This document shows, piece by piece, positions 1 through 64,000 of a DNA stretch of 64,000 bases (its first letter is position 1; each line of letters starts with the position of its first letter). A program made the position numbers and the translations under genes. The notes under the pieces were generated by a model, which was not told where the DNA came from, did not search any database, and worked only from the letters and a program-made list of their open reading frames with translations. The DNA comes from a virus: positions 64,001-128,000 of IMG/VR virus record IMGVR_UViG_3300028197_000003, one strand, 5' to 3'.

Positions 1-428
1 ACAATCTTTTTATGTTGGGTAGTCTTATCACTACACTGGTAATGCGTTACTTTACCGTTTAGTAGACCAGTTGCTCTAGCAATGAGATCCATAGCAGCAA
101 GTCTATCTGCTTCAGGACCTGCTTCAGGTTTCATTCTATGCTTCTTCCACATCTCAGCAACCATATCAACATTATGAACAACACCAATATGTTGTGGTGG
201 TTGTGATTGCCACTCGTCTAGTTTCTCTTGCGTAGTATCTTGAATATTGAAAGGAGTATCACTTTCAATAAATTCTTCGTTCATTTTTTTATATGTTTCT
301 GGCGTAATTTTCATATTGTTTTTCATTGACCAACAGGGTTTACAGAGAGGAACCATCCTCAATTGAGGGCACTGATCCGCTGGAGTTAGTTTACCACAAG
401 AACTACATTCTATCTCCCACATTTTCAT
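1..428 (-). CDS. Hypothetical protein with N-terminal Cys cluster (3' end runs off window)
   Basis: Hand-translated, not in the ORF track: MKMWEIECSSCGKLTPADQCPQLRMVPLCKPCW...KKIV. Open to base 1; its ATG at 428 overlaps the TGA of the upstream minus-strand ORF (ATGA coupling). Confidence 0.7.
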   Translation of the reverse strand, partial: MKMWEIECSSCGKLTPADQCPQLRMVPLCKPCWSMKNNMKITPETYKKMNEEFIESDTPFNIQDTTQEKLDEWQSQPPQHIGVVHNVDMVAEMWKKHRMKPEAGPEADRLAAMDLIARATGLLNGKVTHYQCSDKTTQHKKI

Positions 429-724
429 AATGTTCTTTCTAACCTTTCTGTTGGTTGGTCAGGGAAGTCTCTTGGTCTGCTATCAGTAGCATTATCAGTT
501 TTAGGTGAACCTTCGTTTGCCTTCATAGTATGCTGATAGTTTGCTCTTGGGTATCTGATACGAAAAGGATCAGGCATCCAGTAGGTTACCTGCCATTCCT
601 GTTCAGGACATAGTTCAAGATGTTTCTCTACAGTATGAGAAAAACTCCCAATTTGAATGTACCCATCGTGACTAACGCATCTTCCGTTCCCAGTATCAAC
701 CAGGAATAACATCTTACTACTCAT
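425..724 (-). CDS. Conserved cyanophage hypothetical protein
   Basis: ORF track 425..808. The likely start is MSSKMLFLVD at 724; 808 is the alternative. Confidence 0.7.
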   Translation of the reverse strand: MSSKMLFLVDTGNGRCVSHDGYIQIGSFSHTVEKHLELCPEQEWQVTYWMPDPFRIRYPRANYQHTMKANEGSPKTDNATDSRPRDFPDQPTERLERTL

Positions 725-882
725 AGCATTTCTTGCTCTGGGTTGAGATTCTTGACAAATTGCACAGGATCCCTTTCGGACTTGTGTACCCAATGATATC
801 GCATGCATTCAAACATGTGATCCCACATTGTAACACACGTGTAGTCAGATTTTTTACTTTCTGTTGTCACAATTTTTGATTT

Positions 883-890
883 TATTTATA
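883..890 (-). promoter_or_regulatory. T4-type late promoter TATAAATA
   Basis: Plus-strand TATTTATA is the exact gp55 consensus on the minus strand, pointing at the minus-strand genes. Confidence 0.75.
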
Positions 891-965
891 GTAATGTAAA
901 TAAGTTAGAAATGTTAGTAAACAAACACAAAGTTGCATAGATAGTATGTCGAATTGGGATTTCAC

Positions 966-1124
966 ATGCACAACATTATTTCAAACAACCAGTTGAATGA
1001 ATGGGGTCGAATCCAAATGCTAGAAGAGGAAAATACTAGAATCAATGACTACTATGAATGCATCATTGAATGTGATGAGGGAGGAGCTGCCTGTAAACGA
1101 ATATGTAAAGAAATTTTAGTATAG
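966..1124 (+). CDS. 52-aa Cys-rich microprotein (Cx3C-x6-Cx3C)
   Basis: Hand-translated MHNIISNNQLNEWGRIQMLEEENTRINDYYECIIECDEGGAACKRICKEILV*, followed by a terminator. Confidence 0.8.
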   Translation: MHNIISNNQLNEWGRIQMLEEENTRINDYYECIIECDEGGAACKRICKEILV

Positions 1125-1134
1125 GTACCACTAC

Positions 1135-1163
1135 AAACCTCCCCTTCCTAGGGGGGGTTTTTT
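1135..1163 (+). terminator. Rho-independent terminator
   Basis: AAACCTCCCC-ttccta-GGGGGGGTTT stem followed by a T run. Confidence 0.8.
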
Positions 1164-1196
1164 GCTATAGTAAATAGGGATGACGCTGATGCAACC

Positions 1197-1397
1197 ATGA
1201 AAGACCAGAACGCTATTTTGGATTCCGAAAGCAAACAGGTCAAGTGGAACCGTGGGTTAGATCTTTTCATTGAATCAGTTTTGAAACCGGATTCAACACT
1301 TAGAGACTGTGCTCACAACCAGCAGTGCTATAATGAACTTATGGATGTCAGGCAAGACGTTCTTCAGTATCTGAAATCTAAACGTTGGTATGCCTAA
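1197..1397 (+). CDS. Conserved cyanophage hypothetical protein
   Basis: 66-aa ORF (KWNRGLDLFIESVLKPD); late-promoter-like GTAAATA just upstream. Confidence 0.75.
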   Translation: MKDQNAILDSESKQVKWNRGLDLFIESVLKPDSTLRDCAHNQQCYNELMDVRQDVLQYLKSKRWYA

Positions 1398-1554
1398 AAA
1401 CTCAGTAACTAGGGAAGAGTTGATCACCCGAGTTCTCAAACTAAAAACAGAATTGTATGATGGTTCCTGGTCTGCTAAAAACAGGGACTGGCACGAAGGT
1501 GGACAGAGTTCTTTGAATAGAGTTCTTGATCTATTAGAAGAGTATCGCTTCTAA
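1390..1554 (+). CDS. Small hypothetical protein, 54 aa
   Basis: Hand-translated MPKNSVTREELITRVLKLKTELY...LLEEYRF*; fills the gap before gp3. Confidence 0.7.
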   Translation: MPKNSVTREELITRVLKLKTELYDGSWSAKNRDWHEGGQSSLNRVLDLLEEYRF

Positions 1555-1578
1555 ATAGCTCGTTGCTGCTATTAGCTT

Positions 1579-2157
1579 TTGAAAACTGGAGTTAGGGGTG
1601 CTACTCCTCCATATCAACTAAACGAACCCACAAACAGGAACTTCCTGAGTATTGTTGGATTCAATTTTATTTTGAATCGTTGCCCTAAGGTTAGTTTTTA
1701 TTGTAACCAGGCAAATATCCCAGACATTACTTTAGGGGTAGCAAACCAGGCAAGTTATTTGAGAGACATTCCTGTACCTGGAGACAAACTTCAGTATGGA
1801 GATCTTTCTCTTCAGTTCATGGTTGACGAAAACTGTGAAAATTATTTGCAGATCTATGACTGGATCACAGGACTGGGATATCCAGAGTCCTTACAGCAGT
1901 ATGAAGATCTAAAACGAAACAGCAGGTTCTATCCTAATGAAGATGCTCCATTCAATGAGCGTTCTGATGGAACTTTGATTGTCTTGAACAGTGATTATAA
2001 CCCAGCGGTGAAAATCAAATTCAAGGATATGTTTCCAATCAACCTGTCAGGCATACCTTTCAGTGCTATTGAAACAGAAGAACGTTACTTTACAGCATCG
2101 GTAACCTTCAAGTATACTATTTTTGATATGATTGATGTCCTTGGAAAGAAAGTCTAG
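1579..2157 (+). CDS. gp3: Tail completion / sheath stabiliser (T4 gp3-like)
   Basis: NRNFLSIVGFNF...ANIPDITLG...PGDKLQYGDL...WITGLGYP motifs; syntenic with uvsY/uvsW; CTAAATA at 1551. Confidence 0.85.
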   Translation: MKTGVRGATPPYQLNEPTNRNFLSIVGFNFILNRCPKVSFYCNQANIPDITLGVANQASYLRDIPVPGDKLQYGDLSLQFMVDENCENYLQIYDWITGLGYPESLQQYEDLKRNSRFYPNEDAPFNERSDGTLIVLNSDYNPAVKIKFKDMFPINLSGIPFSAIETEERYFTASVTFKYTIFDMIDVLGKKV

Positions 2158-2593
2158 TCCTCTTAGTCTCGAAAACATCCAAGAGATGTGGACTAAAGAT
2201 GCCGTAATGAATCAGGATGAGTTGGACACGGAATCACTGAAGATTCCCCAATTACATGCCAAGTATTATGGGCTATATAATACAATCCTACTGATGAGGA
2301 AACAAAACGAACAAATTTACAGTTCGTTGTTGCTTCAAAGGAGAAATTTTTACACTGGTAAGGCAACTGCTGCTGTATATGAAGCAGAACCATTTCCTTA
2401 CAAGGTCAGAGATAAGGATGACCTCAAGTTATATCTTGAGTCTGACGAGAAGTTATCCAAAACGAGACTAAAAATTGAATACTTCGATTCAATGTTGAAA
2501 TACTTAGAAGAAATTCTAAGGCAGATAACGAATCGCACGTATCAAATCAAAAATGCGATTGAGTGGCGCAGGTTCTCTTCAGGTTATGGCTGA
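2132..2593 (+). CDS. uvsY: UvsY recombination mediator
   Basis: W.KD...LD.ESLKIPQLHAKY; C-terminal R.YQIKNAIEW. Confidence 0.9.
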   Translation: MMSLERKSSPLSLENIQEMWTKDAVMNQDELDTESLKIPQLHAKYYGLYNTILLMRKQNEQIYSSLLLQRRNFYTGKATAAVYEAEPFPYKVRDKDDLKLYLESDEKLSKTRLKIEYFDSMLKYLEEILRQITNRTYQIKNAIEWRRFSSGYG

Positions 2594-4034: not shown

Positions 4035-4458
4035 CAATCCATATGACGAGTTCATAGCAGCAGTCAAGCTGGTTTCTGGTGAGGAGATTCTTTCTACGAT
4101 TATGGTTATTGCAGATGATGACGATAAAGTCATCTTTGATAATCCTATTATCTGTGAAGAAATCCGTTCAAGAGGAGGTAAAGGCACTCCAGTGGGATAT
4201 AAGTTTGAACCTTGGATGAGAATGACAGACGAAGAAGTCTTCATTGTAGATATGGATCGTATTATTACTATCTCTGAAATAAAAGATGAAGATGTAATCA
4301 GTACCTATAAGAACATTATTGCATCAGGATTCACTAGAGAACATCCTGAACTCTCTAAAGAGATGGGGTTTATAAACACAGTAGAGAAAGCAAGAGATAC
4401 CTTTGAAGGAATCTATAAGGCAGAAGATGCCTCTAAGAATCCTAAAGATGCTTTATAG
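4009..4458 (+). CDS. Conserved hypothetical protein (Sm-like fold likely)
   Basis: VKLVSGEEI motif; usual position between uvsW and gp55. Confidence 0.75.
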   Translation: MTSSKSSSDNPYDEFIAAVKLVSGEEILSTIMVIADDDDKVIFDNPIICEEIRSRGGKGTPVGYKFEPWMRMTDEEVFIVDMDRIITISEIKDEDVISTYKNIIASGFTREHPELSKEMGFINTVEKARDTFEGIYKAEDASKNPKDAL

Positions 4459-4536
4459 TGTTCTAAAGTAAGCTATAGCGTCCCGATCAACCCTGACAGA
4501 GTTAGTCTATATGCATTCTGCAGTCTTGTCAAGCTG

Positions 4537-4545
4537 TGCTATACT
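4537..4545 (+). promoter_or_regulatory. Extended -10 sigma70-type promoter for gp55 (TGCTATACT)
   Basis: TGn-TATACT about 22 nt upstream of the gp55 ATG. Confidence 0.55.
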
Positions 4546-4567
4546 ATGAAGATGAAGATCCAATAAG

Positions 4568-5038: not shown

Positions 5039-5289
5039 ACATTCTTTTTGAAAAGTGCGAAAAAGAAAAAGCAGAAGACAGAGGTCTTCCTTACACTGCC
5101 TATTTGATTACATACAAAGTCGATGGAGTTGAGACATACGACATTGCTACCTGTGGAAAAACTACCGATCTGTTTGACCACTATTACGACACCTATAAAA
5201 AAGATTTTATTAGGTTTGACCAAGCACAAGGTAGAGTCAGTCCTAAACTTTACGGTTACAAATCTCCAGAAACTTCTAAAAAACGGTAA
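5035..5289 (+). CDS. Hypothetical protein
   Basis: 84-aa ORF coupled to gp55. Confidence 0.7.
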   Translation: MNILFEKCEKEKAEDRGLPYTAYLITYKVDGVETYDIATCGKTTDLFDHYYDTYKKDFIRFDQAQGRVSPKLYGYKSPETSKKR

Positions 5290-9122: not shown

Positions 9123-9152
9123 CAACTCACCAGAAAAGATGTACTCTAAATA
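9119..9152 (+). promoter_or_regulatory. Overlapping early (TTGACA-N17-TACTCT) and late (CTAAATA) promoters
   Basis: -35 at 9119-9124, -10 at 9142-9147, CTAAATA at 9146-9152. Confidence 0.7.
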
Positions 9153-9243
9153 AGTATTCGTGCTTAGTCACGAATCTTTACACTACGTGGTCCTGTCGAA
9201 CCACTTCCATCTACGGGATATTTCCGTAAGTAACCTAACAACC

Positions 9244-11209: not shown

Positions 11210-11218
11210 TCTGTAATT

Positions 11219-14303: not shown

Positions 14304-15200
14304 ATGAAGTGTCTTGTAACAGGCGGTGCTGGATTCATCGGATCCCATATCGTTTCACGTCTTCTTCGTGATAATCATGAAGTCGTAGTCATTGATAACG
14401 AATCAGCGGAAGCAAACGATGCTTTCAACTGGTACGAGAATGACGTAGAGAACCATATCGAAGACATTCGTGACATCGAAGCATGTCGCCATATCTTCAA
14501 GGGTGTTGAGGTTGTGTTCCATTTGGCAGCACACTCTCGAATCCAATTAGCAATGGAGAATCCTTTTGATTGTGTTACCACAAACGTGGTAGGAACCTGC
14601 AACATGCTTGAACTTGCACGAGAAGTAGGTGTGAGTAGGTTTATCAATTCTTCTACTTCTTCTTCGTATGGTTTGAATAATCAACCACCTTTGATTGAGT
14701 TCATGCCTTCTGATTGTTTGAATCATTATTCAGCAAGTAAGGTATCTGCAGAGAAGTTCTGTTATATGTACTATCGTTTGCATATGTTGCGGACAGTATC
14801 TCTCCGATACTTCAACGTTTACGGTCCTCGTCAACCTTTGAAGGGACCATATGCACCGGTCATTGGTCTGTTCCAAGAACAGAAACGTCGTGGTGAACCT
14901 ATGACCATCGTTGGTGATGGTGAGCAACGTCGTGACTTCACTCACGTCGATGATGTAGTCGAGGCAAACATTTGTGCCATGAATAATTTGATTTCTATTG
15001 AATCAATCAACATTGGTACAGGAACTAATTACTCTATGAATCAAGTTGCTGACATGATTGGCGGTGATAGAGTTTATATCCCAGCACGTAAAGGAGAATC
15101 TAGAGAAACTCTTGCGGATATCTCAAGAGCTAAATCTATGCTAGGATGGGAACCTAAGATTACATTAGAGGATCAACTTACAAATCATGATCAACTTTGA
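14304..15200 (+). CDS. NAD-dependent epimerase/dehydratase (extended SDR)
   Basis: TGGAGFIGS, HLAA, YSASK (YxxxK), RYFNVYGP. Confidence 0.92.
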   Translation: MKCLVTGGAGFIGSHIVSRLLRDNHEVVVIDNESAEANDAFNWYENDVENHIEDIRDIEACRHIFKGVEVVFHLAAHSRIQLAMENPFDCVTTNVVGTCNMLELAREVGVSRFINSSTSSSYGLNNQPPLIEFMPSDCLNHYSASKVSAEKFCYMYYRLHMLRTVSLRYFNVYGPRQPLKGPYAPVIGLFQEQKRRGEPMTIVGDGEQRRDFTHVDDVVEANICAMNNLISIESINIGTGTNYSMNQVADMIGGDRVYIPARKGESRETLADISRAKSMLGWEPKITLEDQLTNHDQL

Positions 15201-15705
15201 CAATATCAATCTTGAAGAATTTTTTGGTTGCGTTGACGCAACTAATACTCCTCAGATGAAGTCAAATACTTTCAAGACAATTCGTACATGGTTACAAGAA
15301 AATTCATTCGCTAAGTGGAGTAACGGACAAGTAGATTACGTTGGTGATTACATGGATGGTGTGGACTTCAAGTCTGCTGAACATAATTACGAGATGAAAG
15401 GAACTCTCGGTATGTTCAATAAGAATGGCAGCACCAAAAGTGTTGTGTTGAAAAACTTCCGAGGTGATGTCTCATTTGTAGATAAAACCTTTGACTACAT
15501 GCTTTTGGTGGACACTAGGAATATGTCTATCGCAGTCACTGATTGGGAAACTGTTGAGAAACGTACCTATTACACTCCATCTTCCCCTTGTGCCAAGTTC
15601 AAACTAGAACCGGGGGACTATACTATGCTGGCAGAGAACGTCACTCCTTCTACTAAAAACACTACAGCAGACGTTCTCCTCAATAACTTCCAAGACATTC
15701 TTTGA
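15187..15705 (+). CDS. Hypothetical protein, candidate PD-(D/E)xK nuclease
   Basis: QENSF helix...GVDF-x6-YEMK pattern; coupled to the methylase by an overlapping stop/start. Confidence 0.5.
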   Translation: MINFDNINLEEFFGCVDATNTPQMKSNTFKTIRTWLQENSFAKWSNGQVDYVGDYMDGVDFKSAEHNYEMKGTLGMFNKNGSTKSVVLKNFRGDVSFVDKTFDYMLLVDTRNMSIAVTDWETVEKRTYYTPSSPCAKFKLEPGDYTMLAENVTPSTKNTTADVLLNNFQDIL

Positions 15706-16526
15706 TGGCACTCGCCAAAACTCCTCTTCGTTATCCCGGTGGTAAATCCCGTGCAACTACACAGATCTACAATCATCTGCCTCGCCTGTCTGGTTATAGG
15801 GAGTATCGTGAATGTTTCTTGGGTGGAGGATCAATGGCGATCTTCATCACACAAAAATACCCTACCCTCCCCGTCGTCTGTAGTGACCTCTACGAACCCT
15901 TAGTCAACTTTTGGATCCATCTTCGCGACGACGGGGAAAAGATGGCAGAAGATCTTCTAAAACTAAAGCGACAGCACGACAATCATGAGTCTGCTCGTGA
16001 ACTATTCATCGAATCTAAGAGACTACTCAATGACGAATCCAATAATGACTCTTTACTGCGTGCTGTCAGTTTTTATATTATCAATAAGTGTTCTTTTTCT
16101 GGTCTCACCGAGTCGTCCTCCTTCAGCAAACAAGCAAGTGTCTCCAACTTCAGTGAACGGGGCATCATGCGACTGCCAACAACTTCCAAAATAATTCGTA
16201 ATTGGACTATCTTACATCAGTCTTACGAGAAGTTATTGGAAGGAGATGATGCTTTGGTATACCTTGACCCTCCCTATGACATCAAGGACAACTTGTATGG
16301 TAAGAAAGGTGGTATGCATAAAGGATTTGATCATGATAAGTTTGCTCGTGACTGCTGCTGGTCTAGCAACGATTGCATCATTAGTTACAACTCAGATCAA
16401 CTAGTCCAAGAACGATTTGAAAATTGGAAAGCAGCAGAGTTTGATCTTACATACACCATGAGATCAGTCGGTGAGTATATGAAGGATCAAACAAAAAGAA
16501 AAGAGTTGTTACTTATGAACTATTAG
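15702..16526 (+). CDS. dam: Dam-like N6-adenine DNA methyltransferase (D12 class)
   Basis: LRYPGGKSR, ECFLGGGS, YLDPPY. Confidence 0.9.
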   Translation: MMALAKTPLRYPGGKSRATTQIYNHLPRLSGYREYRECFLGGGSMAIFITQKYPTLPVVCSDLYEPLVNFWIHLRDDGEKMAEDLLKLKRQHDNHESARELFIESKRLLNDESNNDSLLRAVSFYIINKCSFSGLTESSSFSKQASVSNFSERGIMRLPTTSKIIRNWTILHQSYEKLLEGDDALVYLDPPYDIKDNLYGKKGGMHKGFDHDKFARDCCWSSNDCIISYNSDQLVQERFENWKAAEFDLTYTMRSVGEYMKDQTKRKELLLMNY

Positions 16527-19558: not shown

Positions 19559-19824
19559 TCCAAATTTTAGTATTGAAGAATGATTTGGTCCTAATCTCAC
19601 GAGTAGAGGAGATTGGTACTGAATTGGGGGAACCCGACTGCAAACTCATCAAACCTTATAAGGTTATCTTGCATGAGGGTGGGTGTACCGATGACGTAAC
19701 TTACGAATCGTGGCCAGAGTTTACAGAGCAAAAGGAATTGATGATTCACTCTGATAGTATTCTGACCATAGTTGAACCTAACAAGCATCAACTTGAAAAA
19801 TACCAGCAGGTTACCGCTGAATGA
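19555..19824 (+). CDS. Conserved hypothetical protein (Sm-like)
   Basis: ELGEPDCKL..PY; typical gene ahead of gp43. Confidence 0.75.
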   Translation: MIQILVLKNDLVLISRVEEIGTELGEPDCKLIKPYKVILHEGGCTDDVTYESWPEFTEQKELMIHSDSILTIVEPNKHQLEKYQQVTAE

Positions 19825-22316
19825 GGTTTTACACTAACGTGCAGATGGTCGGCAACGATTTTCTGGTCCGTGGGTATGAAAACGGTAGTCCTATCAAAAC
19901 TAGAGAGAGCTATCAACCTACATTATTTGTTCCATCACGTAAGAAAACTCATTTCAAAACACTGGACGGCAAGTATGTCCAGAGCATTCAACCAGGTACA
20001 GTTAGGGATTGTCGTGAGTTCTACAAAACTCATGGTGACGTAGAGAACTTCGATATCTACGGTAATAATCGGTACGTATACCAGTACATATCTGATAAGT
20101 ATCCAGAAGACGAGATCAAGTTCGACATCAAAAAGATGAAGGTGGTTACCATCGACATCGAGGTGTCTGCTGAGAAAGGATTTCCTACAGTAGAGAACTG
20201 TGATGAGGAAATGCTTTGCATTACCCTACAGAATTACGCTACGAAGCGTATTCTTACCTTTGGTGTGGGTGCATATAATAATACTGACCCTATGGTCAAG
20301 TATGTGCAGTGTAATGATGAGTATGATTTACTTCAACACTTCATTACATATTGGCAGAGTGAGACTCCTGATGTGGTAACCGGGTGGAACTGTCAATTGT
20401 ACGACATTCCGTACCTATGTAAGCGCATCACACGTGTCTTGGGTCAGAAGATGTGTAAGAAGATGTCTCCATGGGGTCTAGTGACTGCTGAGGAGATGTT
20501 TATTATGCATCGTGAGCGCCTTGTCTATGACATTGCAGGTGTTACAGTCCTTGATTACATGGACTTGTACAAAAAATTTACCTATAAGGCACAAGAAAGT
20601 TATAGATTAGATTACATTGGTGAAGTTGAACTTGGTGAGAAGAAGTTAGATCACTCTGAGTACGATAGTTTCAAGGATTTCTATGCTAACGACTGGCAAA
20701 AGTTTGTCAGGTACAACATCCAAGACGTGAGATTGGTTGACTCCCTTGAGGAGAAGATGAAACTGATCGAACTTGCTATCACTATGGCATATGATGCCAA
20801 GGTGAACTTCACAGACGTGTTCTATCAGGTACGGATGTGGGACATGATCATCTATAACGACCTGAAGAAAAAAGGTATCGTTATTCCACCCAAAGCAGAC
20901 GAAGTAAAGAATGAAAAGTATGCTGGTGCCTATGTAAAAGAACCAAAACCTGGCATTTATGAATGGGTTGTGAGTTTTGACTTGAACTCATTGTATCCAC
21001 ACCTCATCATGCAGTACAATATCTCTCCTGAGACACTGTTAGATGAGAGATACCCCTCTGTCAGCGTCGATAAACTACTGAATAAGGAAGTAGACCTGTC
21101 GGGTCTTGAGGACGTTACTGTGTGCCCTAATGGCGCTATGTTTACCACTAAAACACGTGGGTTCCTGCCCAAATTGATGGACAGGATCTACAGTGAACGG
21201 GTGGTCTTCAAGAAAAAGATGATCCAAGCAAAGAAGGAGTACGAAAAAAATCCTACGAAGGCGTTGGAGAAAGAAATTGCCAGGTGTAACAACATTCAGA
21301 TGGCAAAGAAGATCCAACTAAACTCTGCTTATGGTGCCATTGGCAACAATTACTTCCGGTATTACAAACTAGAGAACGCTGAGGCGATTACTCTGGGGGG
21401 TCAGTTCAGCATCCGTTGGATTGAAAACCGGATGAATCTATATCTAAACAAATTACTCAACACTAAAGACCATGACTACGTCATTGCTTCCGATACTGAC
21501 AGTATCTATTTGTGTCTTGATTTACTTGTCAATAGTGTATTTGATGTACAAAAAGTTTCTAAAGAGAGGATTGTTGACTTCCTCAATGACGCCTGCGAGA
21601 AGCGATTTGAACCATACATATCGAAATGCTACGAGGAACTCTCGACGTATGTGAATGCATACGATCAGAAGATGTTCATGAAGAGAGAAACTATTGCTGA
21701 ACGTGGTATTTGGACTGCCAAGAAGCGATATATCCTCAATGCATGGGATATTGAGGGTGTGAGGTTTGCTGAACCAAAACTCAAGATCATGGGTATCGAA
21801 GCAGTCAAGTCATCTACCCCTGCACCTTGCCGTCAGATGATCAAAGACGCTTTGAAGATCATCATGACTAAAACTGAAGATGATGTAATTGATTACATTG
21901 ATAAGGTGCGTCGTGAGTTCAAAAAAATGGATCCTGCTGCTGTTTCTTTCCCCCGATCATGTAACAATCTGGACAAATATAAGAGTTCACTGTCCATTTA
22001 TGGAAAGGGTACACCTATTCATGTCCGAGGTTCATTGCTTTACAACCATTACTTGAAGAAGCATAAGTTAGACTCTAAATATAATGCTATCAACAACGGC
22101 GACAAGGTAAAGTTCTGCTATTTGACCAAACCCAACCCAACTCAAGAGAATGTGATCTCTTTTGTGGGCGATTTTCCAAAAGAATTGGGTCTAGCAAACT
22201 ATGTTGACTATACGTTGATGTTTGATAAATCATTTGTTGAACCGTTGAAGGCGGTTCTGGATGCTATTGGCTGGTCAGTTGAGAAAACTGCAACGCTGGA
22301 CCTTTTCTTTGTCTGA
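19821..22316 (+). CDS. gp43: Family B DNA polymerase
   Basis: Exo DIE, SFDLNSLYP, K..LNSAYG, SDTDS, KKRY; uninterrupted 831 aa. Confidence 0.98.
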   Translation: MRFYTNVQMVGNDFLVRGYENGSPIKTRESYQPTLFVPSRKKTHFKTLDGKYVQSIQPGTVRDCREFYKTHGDVENFDIYGNNRYVYQYISDKYPEDEIKFDIKKMKVVTIDIEVSAEKGFPTVENCDEEMLCITLQNYATKRILTFGVGAYNNTDPMVKYVQCNDEYDLLQHFITYWQSETPDVVTGWNCQLYDIPYLCKRITRVLGQKMCKKMSPWGLVTAEEMFIMHRERLVYDIAGVTVLDYMDLYKKFTYKAQESYRLDYIGEVELGEKKLDHSEYDSFKDFYANDWQKFVRYNIQDVRLVDSLEEKMKLIELAITMAYDAKVNFTDVFYQVRMWDMIIYNDLKKKGIVIPPKADEVKNEKYAGAYVKEPKPGIYEWVVSFDLNSLYPHLIMQYNISPETLLDERYPSVSVDKLLNKEVDLSGLEDVTVCPNGAMFTTKTRGFLPKLMDRIYSERVVFKKKMIQAKKEYEKNPTKALEKEIARCNNIQMAKKIQLNSAYGAIGNNYFRYYKLENAEAITLGGQFSIRWIENRMNLYLNKLLNTKDHDYVIASDTDSIYLCLDLLVNSVFDVQKVSKERIVDFLNDACEKRFEPYISKCYEELSTYVNAYDQKMFMKRETIAERGIWTAKKRYILNAWDIEGVRFAEPKLKIMGIEAVKSSTPAPCRQMIKDALKIIMTKTEDDVIDYIDKVRREFKKMDPAAVSFPRSCNNLDKYKSSLSIYGKGTPIHVRGSLLYNHYLKKHKLDSKYNAINNGDKVKFCYLTKPNPTQENVISFVGDFPKELGLANYVDYTLMFDKSFVEPLKAVLDAIGWSVEKTATLDLFFV

Positions 22317-25762: not shown

Positions 25763-26438
25763 TCTTTGCATAACCTGCATCAAAATTGGAGACAAATTTG
25801 ATGCAGGTTATGTGAACAAACTCTATGATATGGTGCATCGTCAGATTGATGTACCATTTTTTTGTTTTACTGATAACCCTAGTGGCATCAAAGAAGGTGT
25901 TACTGTGGTTGAGATTGATGTTACTGAATATTCTCAATGGGAGAATTGGTGGCCAGCATGGTGGAAGATCAATATGTTTGTCCGCCCTGAAATACAGGAC
26001 TTCAAACGTAAAATCTTCTTTGATTTGGATGTGATTATCCATGGAGATCTTAGTAAAATTTATGAATTCAATAGTCCATTTGCTTTGGTCTATTCTTCTT
26101 GGAAAGGATTACAATTCCAAGTCAAAAACCCAACCAAATCGATGTTCAATTCCAGTGTAATTGCATGGGATGATGCAAAGCACATTTATGATCATTGGAT
26201 GCAGGATGCTAAGGGATTCGTTGCCAAGTATGCTGGAACTGATGACTTCTATCATAACGAAAAGATCAAAAGATATCGTCTCCCACCTATCATCTACTCA
26301 TATAGGGATGGTTGTATTCCAGGGCAACAAAATTGTTTAGAATTTAGACCATGGATGGGACTTGCTATTCTCCATCAGCACCCTAAGAACCATGAACTAG
26401 ACCCAAATATACATATTATTGCTAGGTATTGGGGATAG
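25749..26438 (+). CDS. Putative GT-A glycosyltransferase
   Basis: CIKIGDKF...YVNKL, CFTD, WWKINMF, FFDLDV (DxD), FNSSV. Confidence 0.7.
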   Translation: METSNLCITCIKIGDKFDAGYVNKLYDMVHRQIDVPFFCFTDNPSGIKEGVTVVEIDVTEYSQWENWWPAWWKINMFVRPEIQDFKRKIFFDLDVIIHGDLSKIYEFNSPFALVYSSWKGLQFQVKNPTKSMFNSSVIAWDDAKHIYDHWMQDAKGFVAKYAGTDDFYHNEKIKRYRLPPIIYSYRDGCIPGQQNCLEFRPWMGLAILHQHPKNHELDPNIHIIARYWG

Positions 26439-27538
26439 TAATGGCAAAGATTGATCCAAAGCATCTCAAGAAATATACTGTCAAGTGGATTCTTTCTAAT
26501 GAACCACTTGATTTTTTTATGAGAATTGCTAAGTCATTCGAGCATCATATGGATCGCCGCATGCCTGGTAGAGTCAATTTTGAAATTATGTCTGCTCAAG
26601 AGTATGCAGTCAAGTATAATGATGGAGTTGAGATTGATCATGATGATGTGCTTAGATTGTTGAAAGAAAATGAGATCCAACTAGCAGATTTTCCTGCACC
26701 TTTGTTTGCACAAAAGATCAAAGAGCGTTATCAGAATCGTCAAACTAGGGGGAAAGATTTAGATTTTGTTGAAAGTGATTGGTCAAGCATTGAAATGCCA
26801 TTTCTTTTTAGAAATGAAACGCATGCCACTGCGTTTATGCAGTCCCATATGGGTGAACAACTTCTTTACTATCGTAATCAGTTGAAAGTAAAACCTATGG
26901 CAATGGTGTCTTGGGGTGGATCTAAATTGATTGCTGGGGACAAACCCTATATGTCACCTGAGGATTTTGAAGGTAGTAAAGTTAGTCTCCAATACCATAC
27001 TGCAGTAGCAGAGAAAATTTTTGAGTCTTTGGGTGCTGAGGTCACTGATTCTGACGCTGATGCATATGAGACAGACATGCCCTCCTTTGATATGTCTAAG
27101 AAGGTGGTTACTGAACTGAATCACAGCATCAATACTAATATTATCCTTGCATCTCATGAGTTCTGGAGGAATGTAATCAAGTGTGAGTGTGATTACAGAG
27201 AGCATACTAAAGAAGAAGAGGACGGTTGTCTAAGAAAACAATTGAAACGTGCATGCAATGAAGCAACACGTGATAGAGACGTGTGGAATGATGAAATGAC
27301 TGCTAAGTTTAGGCAAGAATGTGAGTCAAGAGGCATTGAGTTACATCAGGTATCTGACTCCACTCCTTTCAAAGAAAAGACTGCTTCTGTATATGATCAG
27401 TTTGTAAAATTCTTCTATGACGAACAGTTTATTGACAGTGAAAGTGAGGTTGTCAAGCATGACCTCAGAACAAGAGTCAATGATTTGTCTGACAACAGTA
27501 GAAGTGCTTGGTGTGACGACCTTACTATTGACCAATGA
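26429..27538 (+). CDS. DctP-like TRAP substrate-binding-fold protein
   Basis: EMPFLFRN..HA, G..LI....PY.SPEDFEGSKV, FESLGAE, VTELNHS...ILAS.EFW; no signal peptide seen. Confidence 0.75.
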   Translation: MGIVMAKIDPKHLKKYTVKWILSNEPLDFFMRIAKSFEHHMDRRMPGRVNFEIMSAQEYAVKYNDGVEIDHDDVLRLLKENEIQLADFPAPLFAQKIKERYQNRQTRGKDLDFVESDWSSIEMPFLFRNETHATAFMQSHMGEQLLYYRNQLKVKPMAMVSWGGSKLIAGDKPYMSPEDFEGSKVSLQYHTAVAEKIFESLGAEVTDSDADAYETDMPSFDMSKKVVTELNHSINTNIILASHEFWRNVIKCECDYREHTKEEEDGCLRKQLKRACNEATRDRDVWNDEMTAKFRQECESRGIELHQVSDSTPFKEKTASVYDQFVKFFYDEQFIDSESEVVKHDLRTRVNDLSDNSRSAWCDDLTIDQ

Positions 27539-38818: not shown

Positions 38819-39376
38819 TCTTGTGGTTCTAGTAACGATGCAGTTATAAGGCACATTTTCAGTAAACCTACTAGTGAGGTTTATGATTTTTATTTTCTGC
38901 AAACCACTATTCCTACTAGAGGTGAGTTTTTTGATCCTAAAACGCAGGGGTGGACAAGATATAGTTTTGGGAAGGGTATGAAGGAGAAATGTATATCTCG
39001 GTGGGGACCTATAGAAGGAGCAAAGTTTATACAGTGGATGGAGTTTGGATTTAGTAGAGTCTATAATGATCATTATGGAAAAACTAAAGAAACTATTGTA
39101 TACAATGCAATGAAAGCATACGTTGCATCTGTGGGTCGAGCAAGAAGATCTTTCTTTAGTACGTTGGTACCTTTTCAATGCACTGATAATAAGTATGATC
39201 TGTATCACATAGGCAAAAGGGACTGGCCTAAGGATAAACCTATGCCACCAGAACTATTGGTATATGATAAAATACCCGACGATGGGCATCCTTCTGTAGA
39301 AGGACATAAGACGATAGCAAAATACGTTATAGATATAGTAAGTGAGCGACTAAGTGATGAGGGTTCAGTCTGCTAA
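38684..39376 (+). CDS. SGNH/GDSL hydrolase-like protein, copy 2
   Basis: Same motifs; close paralog of copy 1; TTG start. Confidence 0.8.
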   Translation: MKFYFDGDSFTYGGGLKKVLGIDPEDVRWSKLVCDHFGAEEINLSSCGSSNDAVIRHIFSKPTSEVYDFYFLQTTIPTRGEFFDPKTQGWTRYSFGKGMKEKCISRWGPIEGAKFIQWMEFGFSRVYNDHYGKTKETIVYNAMKAYVASVGRARRSFFSTLVPFQCTDNKYDLYHIGKRDWPKDKPMPPELLVYDKIPDDGHPSVEGHKTIAKYVIDIVSERLSDEGSVC

Positions 39377-39692
39377 GGCAAAGGGTAGGAGACTACAACA
39401 GTGGGTGAGAGACATGCTCATCGAGATGTTAGAAGTACATCCTGAGGATGTTGAATCTAGATCTATGGGTGCGGGTGGTGAAGACATCATCATGGCACGT
39501 GCAGCTAGACAAAAGTTTCCTTTCTCAGTAGAATGTAAGAACACAGAAAAACTAAACGTCTGGGATGCGTATGACCAGGCATGTGCTAACTCTGGTGATT
39601 ACGAACCAATTCTCTTTATAAAAAAGAATGGCAGGAAACCACTCGCTATACTCGATGCGGAAAGCTTTATTAGATCCAACCGACATGAATGA
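39357..39692 (+). CDS. PD-(D/E)xK nuclease (resolvase-like)
   Basis: SAKAKGR..Q, MGAGGED, SVECKN. Confidence 0.8.
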   Translation: MRVQSAKAKGRRLQQWVRDMLIEMLEVHPEDVESRSMGAGGEDIIMARAARQKFPFSVECKNTEKLNVWDAYDQACANSGDYEPILFIKKNGRKPLAILDAESFIRSNRHE

Positions 39693-59072: not shown

Positions 59073-61546
59073 TTTTTTATACGTGCATAACCAACGGATA
59101 CGACTCCATTCCTGACGCATATGTTGAGGAAGGTTGTCGGTATGTTTTGTTTCATGATGGAAGCATTCCTACAACCAAAGGACCGTGGGAGTACGTACAT
59201 CTTGATGATCTAAATGTAAAACTTCCCGACTGTCCTGTTAGGAAGTCATATGTTATCAAGCATGAACCGCATATATACTTCACACAGTCTTCTGATCTGA
59301 CTGTGTGGGTAGACGCAGCATATAATATAACCCTAGATCTGGTTGAATATAGTAGGAAAGTCTTTCGGCATCCTCATAGTTTTGTTGTACTACAAGAGCA
59401 CCCTGACCCCCGCAGTTTGCTTGAAGAGTTCAATAAGTTGTATGCCGAAGGATTTTCTGACAGTGTAGAAATTACCAAGATGTCTGAATGGATGCTTGGT
59501 GGTTATGATCCTTACCCTAAAAAGGATTACAAACAAACAATCAACTGCGTTGTCTGGAGACGTAACTTCCAAGAGAATAGGGAGTGGAACAGAGCGTGGG
59601 CACGGTGGTATAAGAGAGGTGTCAACCGTGATCAAATTGCTAGTGCACTTGCTGAGCATGAGACAGGACTGACAGCACTGCGTGTACCGATGCAGGTCAG
59701 TCTTGACAACACTAATAGGGTCAAGAAGTACGAAGAATCTTATAATATTGATCGACCAACCAACAAACAGATCACTGACTTTCAAAATAAATTAGTAAAA
59801 ATTTGGGACAGTGATATTAGTTCGATGTTGATGATGGCAGCAGTGCCCACTTTACCTCATGAATTTGGAGAAAGAATCAAACATATTCAATTGAATGTTT
59901 ATACATGTATTACTAATGATTATGATATCCCTCAGAATTTTTACTTTGATCCAAATGTAAACTATTGGATTTTCCATGATGGGAAGTTATCTGTTCCTGA
60001 TAGTCAAAAGATGTCAGGTTCTTGGAAGTATATTGATGTTTCTAATCTTGGGATTGATAATCCAAGAGAGTTGGCGTTCTATGTCAAAGCAAATGCTCAC
60101 GAGTTTTTTCCTCCTAACTCATATACAGTATGGGTTGATGGATGCTTTGATCATTCTTATGATTTTATTGAAAGATCTCTTGGATGTTTTCCTTTCTCGG
60201 TCCTGCGTCATGGAGGAGAGTTCTCATACTACGATGAGTTGTTGGAAGGATTTACTTGTGCTTTCTATAAGTACAACACAGCAGTCAACTACACCCTGTA
60301 TCTGGCATCGGCGGGATATGACTTTCTAAAATATTCTAGTCCACAGTGCTCTGTTGTCTGGAGACAGTTGACTCCGGAGGTAATTGAGTTCAATAAGAAA
60401 TGGTATGAGGAGGGGTATCTAAATCGAGATACGATTCCTTTTGATGCTGCTATACAGTTTACAGGAGTAACTCCCCGGTTCTATGATAACCGGGATGACT
60501 GTGGTATAAAATTTGGGTTCAACAATAAGAGAGGTAGACTCAAAAAACATGAGCAACTGGGTGATCTAGATCAATATAAAAAGGTAGATCAGTTCCTTAT
60601 GGAAGTTGATCGAGCGACTGGATATGAAGCAAAGTTGTTTTGTAAGTATAAACTCCATGAGTTTTACATGAAATACTATGGTATTGGTGGCAATTTAGGA
60701 CTGTCATTCAATACTTATCCTTATCAAGAAGGTGTCCGTGTTGATAAAAAATTAGTTGTCATCTATACATGCATTACTAATGGGCATGATGTGATACCAG
60801 ATAAGAATTACTATGATCCTGAAATAAGATACGTATGTTTTCATGATGGCACTATTGATACTACCAAGGGTCCATGGGAGTACATCAAATTAGATCTTGA
60901 TATTGAGTGTCCACGAGACTTAGCGTTCTATCCAAAGTGTAACCCCCATGAGTTTTTTGAGAAAGGAACTTACACTGTATGGGTAGACGGTTGCTTTGTG
61001 CATACCCGAGAGTTTGTAGAGAAGAGTTTGTATTCTTTTCCCTTCACCACACTTAGGAACATCAGCAAGTTCTCATACTATGATGAGTTGTTGGAGGGGT
61101 TTACTTGTGCCTTCTTCTCATACGAGGGGGGAATAGAGATTACTAAAGAACTAAGCACCACAAACTATAAGTTCAATAAGTATTCGAGTCCTCAGTGCTC
61201 AATTATATGGAGATATTTGTACGATGAGACTATAGAATTCAATGAGCAGTGGTATACTTGGAGTAAGAAAGGTATCAATAGGGATAGTATTCCCTTTGAT
61301 GCTGCTGTTCAATTGACTGGTACCAAACCTTTGTATTATGAGAACAGGACTGACTCTGGTATCAAGATGGGGTTCCAGCACAAGGTTGGTAGAGTCAAGA
61401 AGCATCCTCAGTATGGAGACAAAGATCAATATACTAAAGTGGATCAGTTTATCAAAGACCTTGAAAAATGGACTAAACTAAAACCACTTTTGTATATCAA
61501 GTACAAGTTTCATGAGTTCTATATGAAACACTATGACATCATATGA
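59069..61546 (+). CDS. Triple-domain DUF616-like (TOD1/MUCI70) putative glycosyltransferase
   Basis: Three repeats beginning YTCITN at about 59069, 59897 and 60758, each with VWVD(A/G) and NRD; TTG start. Confidence 0.78.
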   Translation: MIFYTCITNGYDSIPDAYVEEGCRYVLFHDGSIPTTKGPWEYVHLDDLNVKLPDCPVRKSYVIKHEPHIYFTQSSDLTVWVDAAYNITLDLVEYSRKVFRHPHSFVVLQEHPDPRSLLEEFNKLYAEGFSDSVEITKMSEWMLGGYDPYPKKDYKQTINCVVWRRNFQENREWNRAWARWYKRGVNRDQIASALAEHETGLTALRVPMQVSLDNTNRVKKYEESYNIDRPTNKQITDFQNKLVKIWDSDISSMLMMAAVPTLPHEFGERIKHIQLNVYTCITNDYDIPQNFYFDPNVNYWIFHDGKLSVPDSQKMSGSWKYIDVSNLGIDNPRELAFYVKANAHEFFPPNSYTVWVDGCFDHSYDFIERSLGCFPFSVLRHGGEFSYYDELLEGFTCAFYKYNTAVNYTLYLASAGYDFLKYSSPQCSVVWRQLTPEVIEFNKKWYEEGYLNRDTIPFDAAIQFTGVTPRFYDNRDDCGIKFGFNNKRGRLKKHEQLGDLDQYKKVDQFLMEVDRATGYEAKLFCKYKLHEFYMKYYGIGGNLGLSFNTYPYQEGVRVDKKLVVIYTCITNGHDVIPDKNYYDPEIRYVCFHDGTIDTTKGPWEYIKLDLDIECPRDLAFYPKCNPHEFFEKGTYTVWVDGCFVHTREFVEKSLYSFPFTTLRNISKFSYYDELLEGFTCAFFSYEGGIEITKELSTTNYKFNKYSSPQCSIIWRYLYDETIEFNEQWYTWSKKGINRDSIPFDAAVQLTGTKPLYYENRTDSGIKMGFQHKVGRVKKHPQYGDKDQYTKVDQFIKDLEKWTKLKPLLYIKYKFHEFYMKHYDII
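60219..61115 (+). repeat. Internal direct repeat within the triple-domain gene
   Basis: 48-nt blocks at 60219-60266 and 61068-61115 differ at 4 synonymous positions; 849 nt apart. Confidence 0.85.
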
Positions 61547-62484
61547 TCCTCTACACATCCATCACTAACGGATACTTTCAGTTGCCGCAATTGGATATTG
61601 ATTGTAGATGTGTTTGTTTTCATGATGGAAGTGTGTATGAGCAAGAAGGATGGGAACTAAAGTACATACCTGGGTTCTCATCTGATCCTATTCGTATGTC
61701 ACGTCTGGTAAAGATGATATGTCCATTTGATGAACCTAATGTTTACATTGATGCATCTAAATTACATACACTAAACAATAAATTTTGTGAAGTAAGTAAT
61801 TTTATTCTTTCTCAGGATACTTTTACTGTAATAGAGCATCCACATTCTCATACGTATCTTGAAGAGTGTGCTGAATATATTTGTAGAGGACTTGTTCCTT
61901 TCTCTGATGTGTATAAGTTCACGGTTGCTGCTGCGGAGGCAGGGTATAACTTCAAAGACTATCTGTCACCGCTATGTACGATCCTCTGGAGGAGGGGTAA
62001 GACTGACTTCGACCAACTCTGGTGGGACTGGTACTTGAAGGGTGGTAGGAGGGATCAACTGTCCTTTGCAGTGGCATTGCAGATGAGTGGTATGAAGTAT
62101 GAAACTATTCTTGCTAGAGAACTGATTGATGTATGGTCAGACGCTAGCGATGGTGGTGAGTGGTGGGCGAACAAGGGTGGTAGGTATGGTGCTAAGTATC
62201 ATGTCAATCCTGAGTGGGCAGTAGACATCCTATGTAATATGACAGGTCTGGAAAAGAACTCAAGGAACTATCGCTGTGCTGTCCTTACTGAAGATGATCA
62301 ACCTGTCTGGTTGTTTGGTGATATGTCAAATGATTTCGATTATAAGTACAGAAAATTGAACGTTTTGAATCCATATCACAGTCTTCTGTGGTATACCAAT
62401 AGAAAGACTGGTGTTATACGAAGACCGAGTCGAACTATTAGATCACACTTTGATGATCCATTCTTTTTCCCACACCCCATATGA
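61543..62484 (+). CDS. DUF616-like putative glycosyltransferase
   Basis: YTSITNGY, YIDAS, HP....YLEE, RRDQLSF. Confidence 0.78.
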   Translation: MILYTSITNGYFQLPQLDIDCRCVCFHDGSVYEQEGWELKYIPGFSSDPIRMSRLVKMICPFDEPNVYIDASKLHTLNNKFCEVSNFILSQDTFTVIEHPHSHTYLEECAEYICRGLVPFSDVYKFTVAAAEAGYNFKDYLSPLCTILWRRGKTDFDQLWWDWYLKGGRRDQLSFAVALQMSGMKYETILARELIDVWSDASDGGEWWANKGGRYGAKYHVNPEWAVDILCNMTGLEKNSRNYRCAVLTEDDQPVWLFGDMSNDFDYKYRKLNVLNPYHSLLWYTNRKTGVIRRPSRTIRSHFDDPFFFPHPI

Positions 62485-63296
62485 TTATTTACACCTGCGT
62501 CACTAACGGATACGACAAATTCTCTGATGATCATTACTATGATCCCAGTGTCAGGTATGTTGCCTTCACAGATGGCACTGTTGATGTGCCAGAGAAATGG
62601 GAAGAGTATCCAATCAAAGTAGAAGAGGAGTGTCCACGTAGGAGATCTGCTCACCCCAAGATCTGCCCTCATCTTTATTTTGATGCAGGTGAGTCAGTGG
62701 TCTGGATTGATGGGTGTTATGTAATCACCAAAGAATTTGTAGAAACTTCTAAACGTATCTTGAGTCGTAGTAGTCAGACTCACATGATTCATCCTTGTCG
62801 CTTCAATTTTGTTGAGGAAGTGATGGAAGGTTACGTGTCCTCATTCAACACCAAAGCACAGATGGTGGAGATCATGGAGGCGTTGATGGAACTGAACTAT
62901 AACTTCAAAAACTATTGCAGTCCTGTACTGGCATCAATTTGGAGACATATTACTCCTGAGATCAGTAAGTTTGGTGACCTGTGGTGGAAGTATTCTTTGA
63001 TTGGTCCTAACCGTGACCAGATTTCTTTTGATACTGCACGTCAACTGACTGCATTACCCTGGCAGACAATAAAAAATCCACTAAAGGACCACTGGCCTGA
63101 GGTTGGTATTGATTTTGACCACCGAACAGGTAAGTTGAATCGCCTAGGAAAGCATCCCCAAGCAGGAGATCTGGAGCAGTACAAGCGTGAGAATGAGATG
63201 CTCAAGGAGATAGGTCGGTGCACTCGTATGATTGCAAGGTTGCACTACAAGCACAATTTCCAATCAATGATTGATGCAAACGTATTGAACCGATGA
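62481..63296 (+). CDS. DUF616-like putative glycosyltransferase
   Basis: YTCVTNGYD, KICPH, VWIDG, NRDQISF. Confidence 0.8.
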   Translation: MIIYTCVTNGYDKFSDDHYYDPSVRYVAFTDGTVDVPEKWEEYPIKVEEECPRRRSAHPKICPHLYFDAGESVVWIDGCYVITKEFVETSKRILSRSSQTHMIHPCRFNFVEEVMEGYVSSFNTKAQMVEIMEALMELNYNFKNYCSPVLASIWRHITPEISKFGDLWWKYSLIGPNRDQISFDTARQLTALPWQTIKNPLKDHWPEVGIDFDHRTGKLNRLGKHPQAGDLEQYKRENEMLKEIGRCTRMIARLHYKHNFQSMIDANVLNR

Positions 63297-64000
63297 TTAT
63301 CTACTCATGTATCACTAATGGATATGATGAGATACCGGATGAAAATTACTACGATCCTGATGTCAAGTATGTGATGTTCGCTGATGATACTGTTGAAAGG
63401 AAAGGACCGTGGGAGTTTCGAGAGATCCCATGTGATTATTCCTGTCCTCGTATCCGTTCTTCCTACGTCAAGATCAACCCTCATAAAGTATTTGATGAGG
63501 GTGAGGAGGTTGTTTGGATTGATGGTTGCTACATCATGACCGAACAATATGTAGAGAACTGTAAGAGATACTTTGAGAAGAGTTCTTTCACAGTCATCCG
63601 TCATGTAAACCGTTACACATACTACGATGAGATCTTGGAGGGGTTTATGTCCTCCATGAATACAAAGGAGCAGCAACTAGAGATTACCCGAGTCCTGAAG
63701 TGGATGAACTATGACTTCAAGAAGTACAGCAGTCCTGTGCTGGGATCTATCTGGCGTCGTCTAGAAAACTATGAAGAGTTTGGTGATCTGTGGTGGAAGT
63801 ATGCACAGATTGGACCTAACCGAGATCAGATTTCCTTTGATGCTGCCAAGCAGTTCACTAATAAGCAGATGACTTTCATCGAAGATGGTTGGCATGAACT
63901 ATGGAGAGACAAAAGAGGGAAGTATCTCCACAGAGCAGGAAGTTGTGGTATATTATTCGGACAGCAAGGAAAACAATACCGTCGCAAAAGGCATCCACAG
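63293..64000 (+). CDS. DUF616-like putative glycosyltransferase (truncated by window end)
   Basis: Hand-translated MIIYSCITNGYDEIP...KINPH...VWIDG...NRDQISF; open to base 64000. Confidence 0.8.
   Translation, partial: MIIYSCITNGYDEIPDENYYDPDVKYVMFADDTVERKGPWEFREIPCDYSCPRIRSSYVKINPHKVFDEGEEVVWIDGCYIMTEQYVENCKRYFEKSSFTVIRHVNRYTYYDEILEGFMSSMNTKEQQLEITRVLKWMNYDFKKYSSPVLGSIWRRLENYEEFGDLWWKYAQIGPNRDQISFDAAKQFTNKQMTFIEDGWHELWRDKRGKYLHRAGSCGILFGQQGKQYRRKRHPQ

What the first reader, a model, noticed from the sequence alone, without database searches (positions are those of the whole stretch)
1..64000. TTAA appears purged from the whole window
Seen: reading line by line I found no TTAA in about 64 kb of visibly AT-rich DNA, where base composition alone would predict several hundred. 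Related words (TTCAA, TTGAA, CTAA, TTAG, AATT, TATA) are common. Codon choice appears to bend around it: Ile-Lys/Asn is written ATA AAA or ATC AAA (3546 TTTATAAAA, 32198 GCTATAAAA, 39605 TTTATAAAA), Leu-Lys as CTA or TTG AAA, Phe-Asn/Lys as TTC AA. This holds in core genes, accessory islands and intergenic DNA alike. Inference: strong selection against a TTAA-specific activity. It could be a host MseI-like restriction/defence system, or a phage-encoded TTAA nuclease that destroys host DNA while the phage genome escapes by lacking sites. It also rules out TTAA-core Pho boxes here.
Basis: partly seen in the sequence, partly recalled or inferred. Interest (0 to 1): 0.88.

Follow-up and report, generated by a model that had tools for sequence, protein, structure and literature searches.

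The report
TTAA-free cyanophage with orphan restriction enzyme
This marine cyanobacterial virus has no TTAA anywhere in its 192,000 bases, most likely because it carries its own TTAA-cutting enzyme, has lost the methylase that normally shields such a genome, and stays safe only by offering nothing to cut.

Summary
Confirmed. TTAA occurs 0 times in the window (217 expected, Markov) and 0 times in the whole 192-kb T4-like cyanophage genome (695 expected; 853±20 after codon shuffling), in all three frames. The likely cause lies outside the window: a 175-aa PD-(D/E)XK Type II restriction endonuclease (genome 187,744-188,271) with no partner methylase. Relatives give a natural experiment. All 37 loci with the nuclease and an intact beta-class methylase keep some TTAA. 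Four with a degenerate methylase have none. Phages without the methylase mostly have none, including cultured S-ShM2 (0 in 179.6 kb). Its relative S-BM3 has both genes and 76 sites. Other phages isolated on S-ShM2's host have normal TTAA, which argues against host restriction. Cutting at TTAA is inferred from genomes, not shown. Whether the target is rival phage or host DNA is open. I found no paper on this. This scan reached the same reading before on two other genomes (unchecked AI notes, seen after I had formed mine).

The parts
1..64000 (.). TTAA-free DNA. The window is G000:64,001-128,000; the absence covers the whole 192,351-base T4-like cyanomyovirus genome (psbA, psbD, gp43 68% to S-SM2). 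The proposed cause is OUTSIDE the window and cannot be given in window coordinates: an orphan 175-aa PD-(D/E)XK Type II restriction endonuclease (E49, D72, E81-x-K83) at G000:187,744-188,271, + strand (L125:7744-8271), after cobS, with no methylase beside it; a promoter-like site lies at G000:186,987-187,014 and a terminator-like hairpin at G000:188,609-188,640.
   Evidence: site absence; nuclease; promoter and terminator are consensus matches only, with a weak RNA-contig hint
15187..15705 (+). Second restriction-endonuclease-fold gene (172 aa). Not the TTAA cutter: homologues occur in TTAA-rich phages. Carriers are more depleted in RGCY than non-carriers.
15702..16526 (+). Intact alpha-class (D12) DNA methyltransferase coupled to 15187-15705. 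Closest solved relative is M.CbeI, an N4-cytosine methylase (PDB 7M6B), so it probably guards RGCY/GGCC, not TTAA. It is the only amino-methylase found in the genome.
   Evidence: PMC8616854
39354..39692 (+).
19821..22316 (+). gp43 DNA polymerase, used as the marker to rank relatives by distance.

Best explanation
The phage encodes its own TTAA-specific Type II-like endonuclease and is immune because its genome holds no TTAA. Proposed history: (1) an ancestor carried nuclease plus beta-class methylase; (2) methylation of fast-replicating phage DNA is incomplete, so every TTAA cost something and sites were worn down by silent changes; (3) at zero sites the methylase became dispensable, lost its DPPY motif and was then deleted; (4) any new TTAA, by mutation or gene import, is now cut, which holds the count at zero even in accessory islands. 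During infection the enzyme (predicted homodimer) would cut unmethylated TTAA in other DNA in the cell. I weight co-infecting phage DNA slightly above the host chromosome as the selected target (about 50:40). SHOWN: site absence, gene anatomy, fold, purifying selection, and the match between gene state and site count. INFERRED: cleavage at TTAA, order of events, early expression, biological target.
For: Enzyme: invariant E49, D72, E81, K83 in 54 homologues; model pLDDT 93; PD-(D/E)XK nucleases top both fold searches (I-Ssp6803I Z 11.3, rmsd 2.5, 113 aligned; NhoI Z 10.1); PADLOC Type II REase PDLC03515 E 1.4e-22; dN/dS 0.07-0.23; homodimer score 0.71 vs best control 0.00, runs agree in at least 89% of contacts, pLDDT at least 87, a mark reached by 20 of 30 solved dimers and 1 of 23 monomers. 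Orphan state: no PF01555 methylase in G000 or S-ShM2. Gene state against TTAA count: intact methylase 0 of 37 loci at zero (median O/E 0.28); degenerate methylase 4 of 4 at zero; none nearby 5 of 8 at zero; distant gp43-ranked relatives median 0.94. Long records: 0 in 82 kb, 0 in 109 kb, 0 in 44 kb, 0 in 37 kb, and 2 in 72 kb with both in the last 240 bases. Cultured pair: S-ShM2 nuclease without methylase, 0 in 179,563; S-BM3 nuclease 80% identical plus the methylase, 76 in 169,344, and it is the only one of 50,697 phage records with that methylase above 60% identity. Methylase carriers with the nuclease nearby median O/E 0.11, without 0.74. Zero-TTAA lineages fall in separate places on the nuclease tree: two well supported, two on long branches. 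Same-host controls have TTAA (21-48 per 10.5 kb on WH8102).
Against: No biochemistry; no characterised TTAA enzyme could be compared. PDLC03515 spans several specificities: P-SSM7's distant copy has normal TTAA, and three cellular copies have other methylases and no TTAA depletion. L142/L143 have a 49%-identical nuclease, no methylase within the locus, yet 24 of 46 expected sites; the rest of that record could not be searched. The degenerate methylase is itself under purifying selection (dN/dS 0.17), so it may not be dead. Low-TTAA records with methylase but no nuclease exist (G420, 170 of 591). CCGG and many 6-bp palindromes are at or near zero in cyanophages where I identified no matching enzyme, so outside pressure can also empty a word. 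Loci are related and partly overlapping, so the counts are not independent. The TTAA-free gp43 relatives are fragments that do not reach the nuclease locus.
Confidence: 0.8

Rival explanations
1. A host-encoded MseI-like restriction system purged TTAA from phages specialised on that host; the phage nuclease is incidental.
For: Avoidance of host restriction sites is established phage biology. 14 other 6-bp palindromes are at zero in G000, and several of them also in S-SM2 and S-ShM2, with no phage enzyme identified. The host of G000 is unknown.
Against: S-ShM2 (0 sites) was isolated on WH8102, as were Sf-CH5, S-8S56 and Sf-FS3, which keep TTAA at 0.6-0.9 of Markov expectation. The nuclease profile was not found in 401 genomes of WH7803's family or in the GTDB pattern scan; the methylase has only homologues of at most 41% identity there. 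Synechococcus DNA holds TTAA at Markov expectation. A host system does not explain why the count follows the phage's own methylase state.
Confidence: 0.08
2. TTAA was purged by nucleases of other phages (community-wide phage-phage warfare); the phage's own nuclease is inactive or secondary.
For: The nuclease-methylase pair is common in marine viral contigs. Many phages keep the methylase alone, as a shield would be kept.
Against: Distant gp43-ranked relatives have O/E 0.94 and methylase-only carriers 0.74. The nuclease keeps its catalytic residues under purifying selection.
Confidence: 0.05
3. The ORF is a free-standing PD-(D/E)XK homing endonuclease or resolvase with a long or structural target, and TTAA absence has another, unidentified cause in the genome.
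For: Best fold match is homing endonuclease I-Ssp6803I (Z 11.3), with Hjc resolvases close behind. Many small ORFs in G000 remain unannotated.
Against: In about 35 loci the gene overlaps or abuts a beta-class methylase. It matches a Type II REase profile. TTAA depletion follows it across very different viruses.
Confidence: 0.04
4. Artefact or compositional effect: library selection, assembly, codon bias or tRNA limitation (TTA leucine).
For: TA dinucleotide is low (0.73). Leu-TAA tRNA scarcity restricts Syn9 in WH5701 (PMC11726456).
Against: TTA codons are used 553 times; all three frames and non-coding DNA are empty; codon shuffles give 853 sites. Independent assemblies and a cultured phage show the same zero.
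Confidence: 0.01

Closest known systems
Type IIP restriction-modification systems cutting TTAA (MseI, Tru9I; recalled from memory, sequences not available here)
   Same: Small PD-(D/E)XK nuclease, predicted homodimer, palindromic 4-base site, beta-class amino-methylase partner in relatives.
   Different: Encoded by a lytic phage, not a cell; methylase degenerate or gone; immunity by site absence. Homology to R.MseI itself was not testable.
Chlorovirus R-M systems (PBCV-1; PMC7019647) and marseillevirus R-M systems (PMC7253447)
   Same: Virus-encoded site-specific nucleases, used for host DNA degradation (chlorovirus) or proposed for excluding competitors (marseillevirus).
   Different: Those papers report nuclease and methylase always adjacent; when one is lost it is the nuclease. 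Here the methylase is lost and the nuclease kept, in a bacteriophage.
PacI/PmeI-type methylase-less restriction enzymes (from memory; the missing methylase was not confirmed in the papers read)
   Same: Self-protection by lacking the recognition site.
   Different: Those are rare 8-base cutters in bacteria (PacI is an HNH enzyme, PMC4081073). Here a 4-base AT-rich word, expected about 700 times, is removed from a phage genome.
T4 EndoII/EndoIV with hydroxymethylcytosine (established knowledge)
   Same: A T4-like phage tells self from non-self DNA and cuts the latter.
   Different: T4 marks self with a modified base; here self is marked by a missing word.
Phage avoidance of host restriction sites
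   Same: Palindrome depletion by silent changes; the missing 6-mers in this genome fit it.
   Different: For TTAA the pressure appears to come from the phage's own gene.
T4-GC 685 (SShM2_059; SBM3_00004, annotated 'restriction endonuclease'; PSSM7_054)
   Same: Same gene family in cultured cyanophages (31-36% identity).
   Different: No specificity, orphan state or link to TTAA absence is given in the records or in any paper found.

Membership tests
Type IIP restriction endonuclease | PD-(D/E)XK catalytic motif and fold | tested here: met
   E49, D72, E81-x-K83 invariant; fold matches; PADLOC REase_II E 1.4e-22
Type IIP restriction endonuclease | Homodimer | tested here: inconclusive
   Model supports it (0.71 vs best control 0.00) but a model is not a measurement
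Type IIP restriction endonuclease | Cuts within a short palindrome (TTAA) with Mg2+ | not testable with these tools
   Specificity inferred only from genome statistics
Type II restriction-modification system | Cognate methyltransferase in the same genome | tested here: not met
   No PF01555 gene or remnant in G000; met in about 37 related loci. G000 holds an orphan nuclease, not a complete system.
MseI/Tru9I family | Sequence homology to R.MseI or R.Tru9I | not testable with these tools
   No named TTAA enzyme in Pfam, PDB or the Atlas; PDLC03515 carries no enzyme name
PD-(D/E)XK homing endonuclease (I-Ssp6803I) | Shared fold | tested here: met
   Z 11.3, rmsd 2.5, 113 aligned, 12% identity
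PD-(D/E)XK homing endonuclease (I-Ssp6803I) | Intron-encoded, with no methylase partner in any member | tested here: not met
   Free-standing gene; coupled to a methylase in most relatives
Chlorovirus/marseillevirus-type viral R-M | Nuclease and methylase adjacent, viral DNA methylated at the site | tested here: not met
   No methylase and no sites in G000
Chlorovirus/marseillevirus-type viral R-M | Degrades host or competitor DNA during infection | not testable with these tools
   Needs infection experiments
M.CbeI-like alpha-class N4-cytosine methylase (window 15702-16526) | Sequence similarity with intact motifs | tested here: met
   7M6B E 4.5e-45 over the whole length; 7M6B is M.CbeI; DPPY and FxGxG intact
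M.CbeI-like alpha-class N4-cytosine methylase (window 15702-16526) | Methylates C in GGCC/RGCY | not testable with these tools
   Hint only: RGCY lower in carriers of the neighbouring nuclease; RGCY is the commonest methylated motif in marine viral MAGs (PMC8919816)

The most novel reading that the evidence does not exclude
Lytic phages repeatedly turn a restriction-modification pair into a methylase-free weapon by deleting the target word from their whole genome. In this phage there is a division of labour: a methylase-protected RGCY system suits GC-rich host DNA (one site per about 40 bases), and the orphan TTAA nuclease suits AT-rich rival phages (one site per 120-230 bases, against 700-2,600 in Synechococcus). 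The phage can then accept foreign genes only once they are TTAA-free, which makes a self-imposed barrier to gene flow between cyanophage lineages.
Probability: 0.35. Interest if true: 0.9.

Novelty: new variant of a known kind. Interest (0 to 1): 0.77.

Why it matters
How T4-like cyanophages tell their own DNA from host or rival DNA is, to my knowledge, unresolved. This gives a concrete mechanism with a cultured test pair: S-ShM2 (nuclease only, no sites) and S-BM3 (nuclease, methylase, 76 sites) on standard Synechococcus strains. It also means that a missing word in a phage genome need not record a host defence; it can record the phage's own weapon, which changes how restriction-site avoidance is read and how hosts are predicted from it. 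The intermediate states (intact, degenerate, lost methylase) are all present in nature. A 175-aa TTAA cutter would also be a compact enzyme for laboratory use.

Tried and rejected
ORF 15187-15705 as the TTAA cutter: rejected, 27 TTAA-rich loci carry it. ORF 39354-39692: RusA-like, no link found. The D12 methylase as TTAA guard: rejected, M.CbeI-like and present in TTAA-rich phages. Degenerate cyanobacterial sites (GRCGYC, CYCGRG, GTYRAC, CMGCKG): only the perfect palindromes are missing. Bipartite Type I motifs: none at zero. TTA-codon or tRNA explanation: rejected. Pfam and PDB sequence searches of the nuclease gave nothing; the Atlas gave unnamed viral clusters and a weak Bsp6I lead (0.92, 173 features). 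Searching the TTAA-free gp43 relatives for the nuclease was uninformative because they are fragments. A prospective test, that low-TTAA methylase-only loci hide the nuclease elsewhere, found none in 20 mostly partial records, without a positive control. L142/L143 records were not held. RNA runs were contigs only: one 1,596-base contig covers the nuclease cluster at depth 38 against 1-6 nearby, but contigs cannot show expression level or strand. Ten literature searches found no report of TTAA-free cyanophages or of a phage orphan nuclease with a site-free genome; the library lacks most subscription papers.
Full report
Observation. The window has no TTAA; 478 are expected from base composition and 217 from a maximal-order Markov model. 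The window is bases 64,001-128,000 of a 192,351-base virus record rated 100% complete, and the whole record has none either (695 expected). Gene content (gp43, gp23, psbA, psbD, nrdAB, cobS) makes it a T4-like cyanomyovirus; the nearest cultured polymerase is S-SM2 at 68%. Shuffling synonymous codons yields 853±20 sites spread over all three frames, against 0 observed. TTA codons and TAA stops are used freely but never in the context that makes TTAA.

Other missing words. Fourteen further 6-bp palindromes are at zero (for example AGTACT 0 of 35, TTCGAA 0 of 19, GACGTC 0 of 18) and RGCY is at 0.27. Most of these gaps also occur in TTAA-rich phages such as S-SM2, so they are a general cyanomyovirus trait. 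TTAA is the lineage-specific one. Seventeen loci from close relatives (gp43 at least 83% identical where covered; 188 kb, overlapping) have 0 against 471 expected, a sister group has median O/E 0.27, and distant relatives 0.94.

ORF 15187-15705 has a restriction-endonuclease fold (best Z 9.8 to 3ndh, model pLDDT 71) and overlaps a D12 methylase whose closest solved relative is the N4-cytosine enzyme M.CbeI. Homologues sit in TTAA-rich phages, and carriers are lower in RGCY, not TTAA. RGCY is the commonest methylated motif in marine viral genomes (PMC8919816). I read this pair as a second, methylase-protected system, probably RGCY or GGCC; that is inference. ORF 39354-39692 is RusA-like.

The candidate. 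Reading the rest of the genome showed a 175-aa ORF at 187,744-188,271, outside the window, among small genes after cobS. E49, D72, E81 and K83 are invariant in 54 homologues. The model is confident (pLDDT 93) and matches PD-(D/E)XK nucleases. It hits the PADLOC Type II REase profile PDLC03515 at E 1.4e-22, is predicted to dimerise (0.71 against best control 0.00) and is under purifying selection. No beta-class methylase exists in the genome, and a motif scan finds only the D12 enzyme.

Natural experiment. In most relatives the same gene abuts an intact beta-class methylase. None of 37 loci with an intact methylase is TTAA-free (median O/E 0.28). In the four closest methylase-bearing relatives the methylase has lost its DPPY motif and internal segments, and TTAA is zero. 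G000 and L130 lack the gene. On the nuclease tree these form one clade (100/99) nested among intact-methylase lineages. A separate lineage repeats the pattern in cultured phages: S-ShM2 has the nuclease, no beta methylase and 0 TTAA in 179,563 bases; S-BM3 has an 80%-identical nuclease, the methylase elsewhere in its genome, and 76 evenly spread sites. Two more orphan carriers on long branches have 0 in 37 kb, and 2 in 72 kb with both at the contig end. Among methylase carriers, those with the nuclease nearby have median O/E 0.11 and those without 0.74. These loci share ancestry, so I count two firm and two probable independent origins and give no weight to the p-values.

Host alternative. Three other phages isolated on WH8102, S-ShM2's host, keep 21-48 TTAA per 10.5 kb. 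The nuclease profile was not found in 401 genomes of WH7803's family. Two of them, and one of 401 sampled across the phylum, carry distant PDLC03515 members with other methylases and no TTAA depletion. Synechococcus DNA has TTAA at expectation. G000's own host is unknown, so this rival is weakened, not excluded.

Mechanism. Inferred sequence: a complete pair wears sites down because new phage DNA is not fully methylated; at zero the methylase is released and lost; the nuclease then keeps the count at zero. The nuclease persists because cutting other DNA pays. TTAA falls every 120-230 bases in other cyanophages and every 700-2,600 bases in Synechococcus, whereas RGCY falls every 36-47 bases in Synechococcus. 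This favours rival phages as the TTAA target, although roughly a thousand or more cuts would also wreck a host chromosome. Chloroviruses use packaged nucleases on host DNA and not for exclusion (PMC7019647); for marseilleviruses exclusion is proposed (PMC7253447). A promoter-like site, a terminator-like hairpin and one RNA-library contig running between them hint at transcription but do not show it.

Weak points. Specificity is inferred from counts alone. L142/L143 are an unresolved exception (24 of 46 expected sites, no methylase in view). The degenerate methylase is still under purifying selection. G420 has the methylase, no nuclease and low TTAA, which fits recent nuclease loss but was not shown to be that. 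CCGG is near zero in several cyanophages with no enzyme identified, so outside pressure can also empty a 4-mer.

Novelty. Viral restriction-modification pairs, phage site avoidance and, from memory, methylase-less bacterial 8-base cutters are known. I found no paper on a phage that keeps a frequent cutter, drops the methylase and clears the site from its genome. Two earlier notes of this scan on other genomes reach the same reading; I saw them after recording mine, and they are not independent evidence. Verdict: real, probably explained (0.8), a new variant of a known kind, directly testable with S-ShM2 and S-BM3.

Noticed in passing
L125:7744-8271 (G000:187,744-188,271, outside the window): The orphan PD-(D/E)XK nuclease proposed as the cause of the finding; listed here as well because it has no window coordinates.
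   Followed up: yes
whole genome G000: 18 of 64 palindromic hexamers are absent, 14 of them without TTAA (AGTACT, TTCGAA, GACGTC, GTCGAC, CTCGAG, GGCGCC, CAGCTG, TGCGCA and others). Only perfect palindromes are missing, not degenerate versions. Several of them are also empty in S-SM2, S-ShM2 and S-BM3; the cause is unidentified.
   Followed up: partly
window 15187-16526: Nuclease plus M.CbeI-like methylase between gp44 and gp62: a probable phage-encoded RGCY/GGCC system. The nuclease has no real family in Pfam, PHROGs or PADLOC and no match in cultured phages.
   Followed up: partly
S-ShM2, S-BM3, P-SSM7 (L136-L138, L182-L199): CCGG is at 1 of 126, 0 of 93 and 0 of 21; P-SSM7 also lacks CGCG and GCGC in 40 kb and carries a distant nuclease homologue with two methylases that are not the cognate type.
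   Followed up: no
L132-L135, just after 10,525: Degenerate methylase (DPPY replaced by EPPS/EPPP, internal deletions, 207 aa) is still an open frame under purifying selection (dN/dS 0.17); it may keep a non-catalytic role.
   Followed up: partly
P0007-P0022; L139:10001-10831: A 276-aa form of the nuclease carries about 100 extra N-terminal residues of unknown nature.
   Followed up: no
L142/L143: Nuclease carrier without visible methylase has TTAA but zero GGCC and CCWGG and low GATC.
   Followed up: partly
L296-L371: The cognate methylase often occurs alone, including in 200-360 kb viral records, with TTAA near 0.75 of expectation; it may act as a shield against this nuclease family.
   Followed up: partly
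L179:7563-8892; L175:4883-6262: Distant nuclease homologues sit next to other methylase forms: a two-ORF NPPF enzyme in L179, and a 460-aa DPPY frame with a long insertion in L175.
   Followed up: no
window 1-64000: No tRNA genes in the window, whereas S-SM2 has a tRNA cluster in the matching region.
   Followed up: no
window 26429-27538: A 369-aa ORF after the glycosyltransferase looks by eye like a TRAP-type solute-binding protein; only an unnamed PHROG matched.
   Followed up: no
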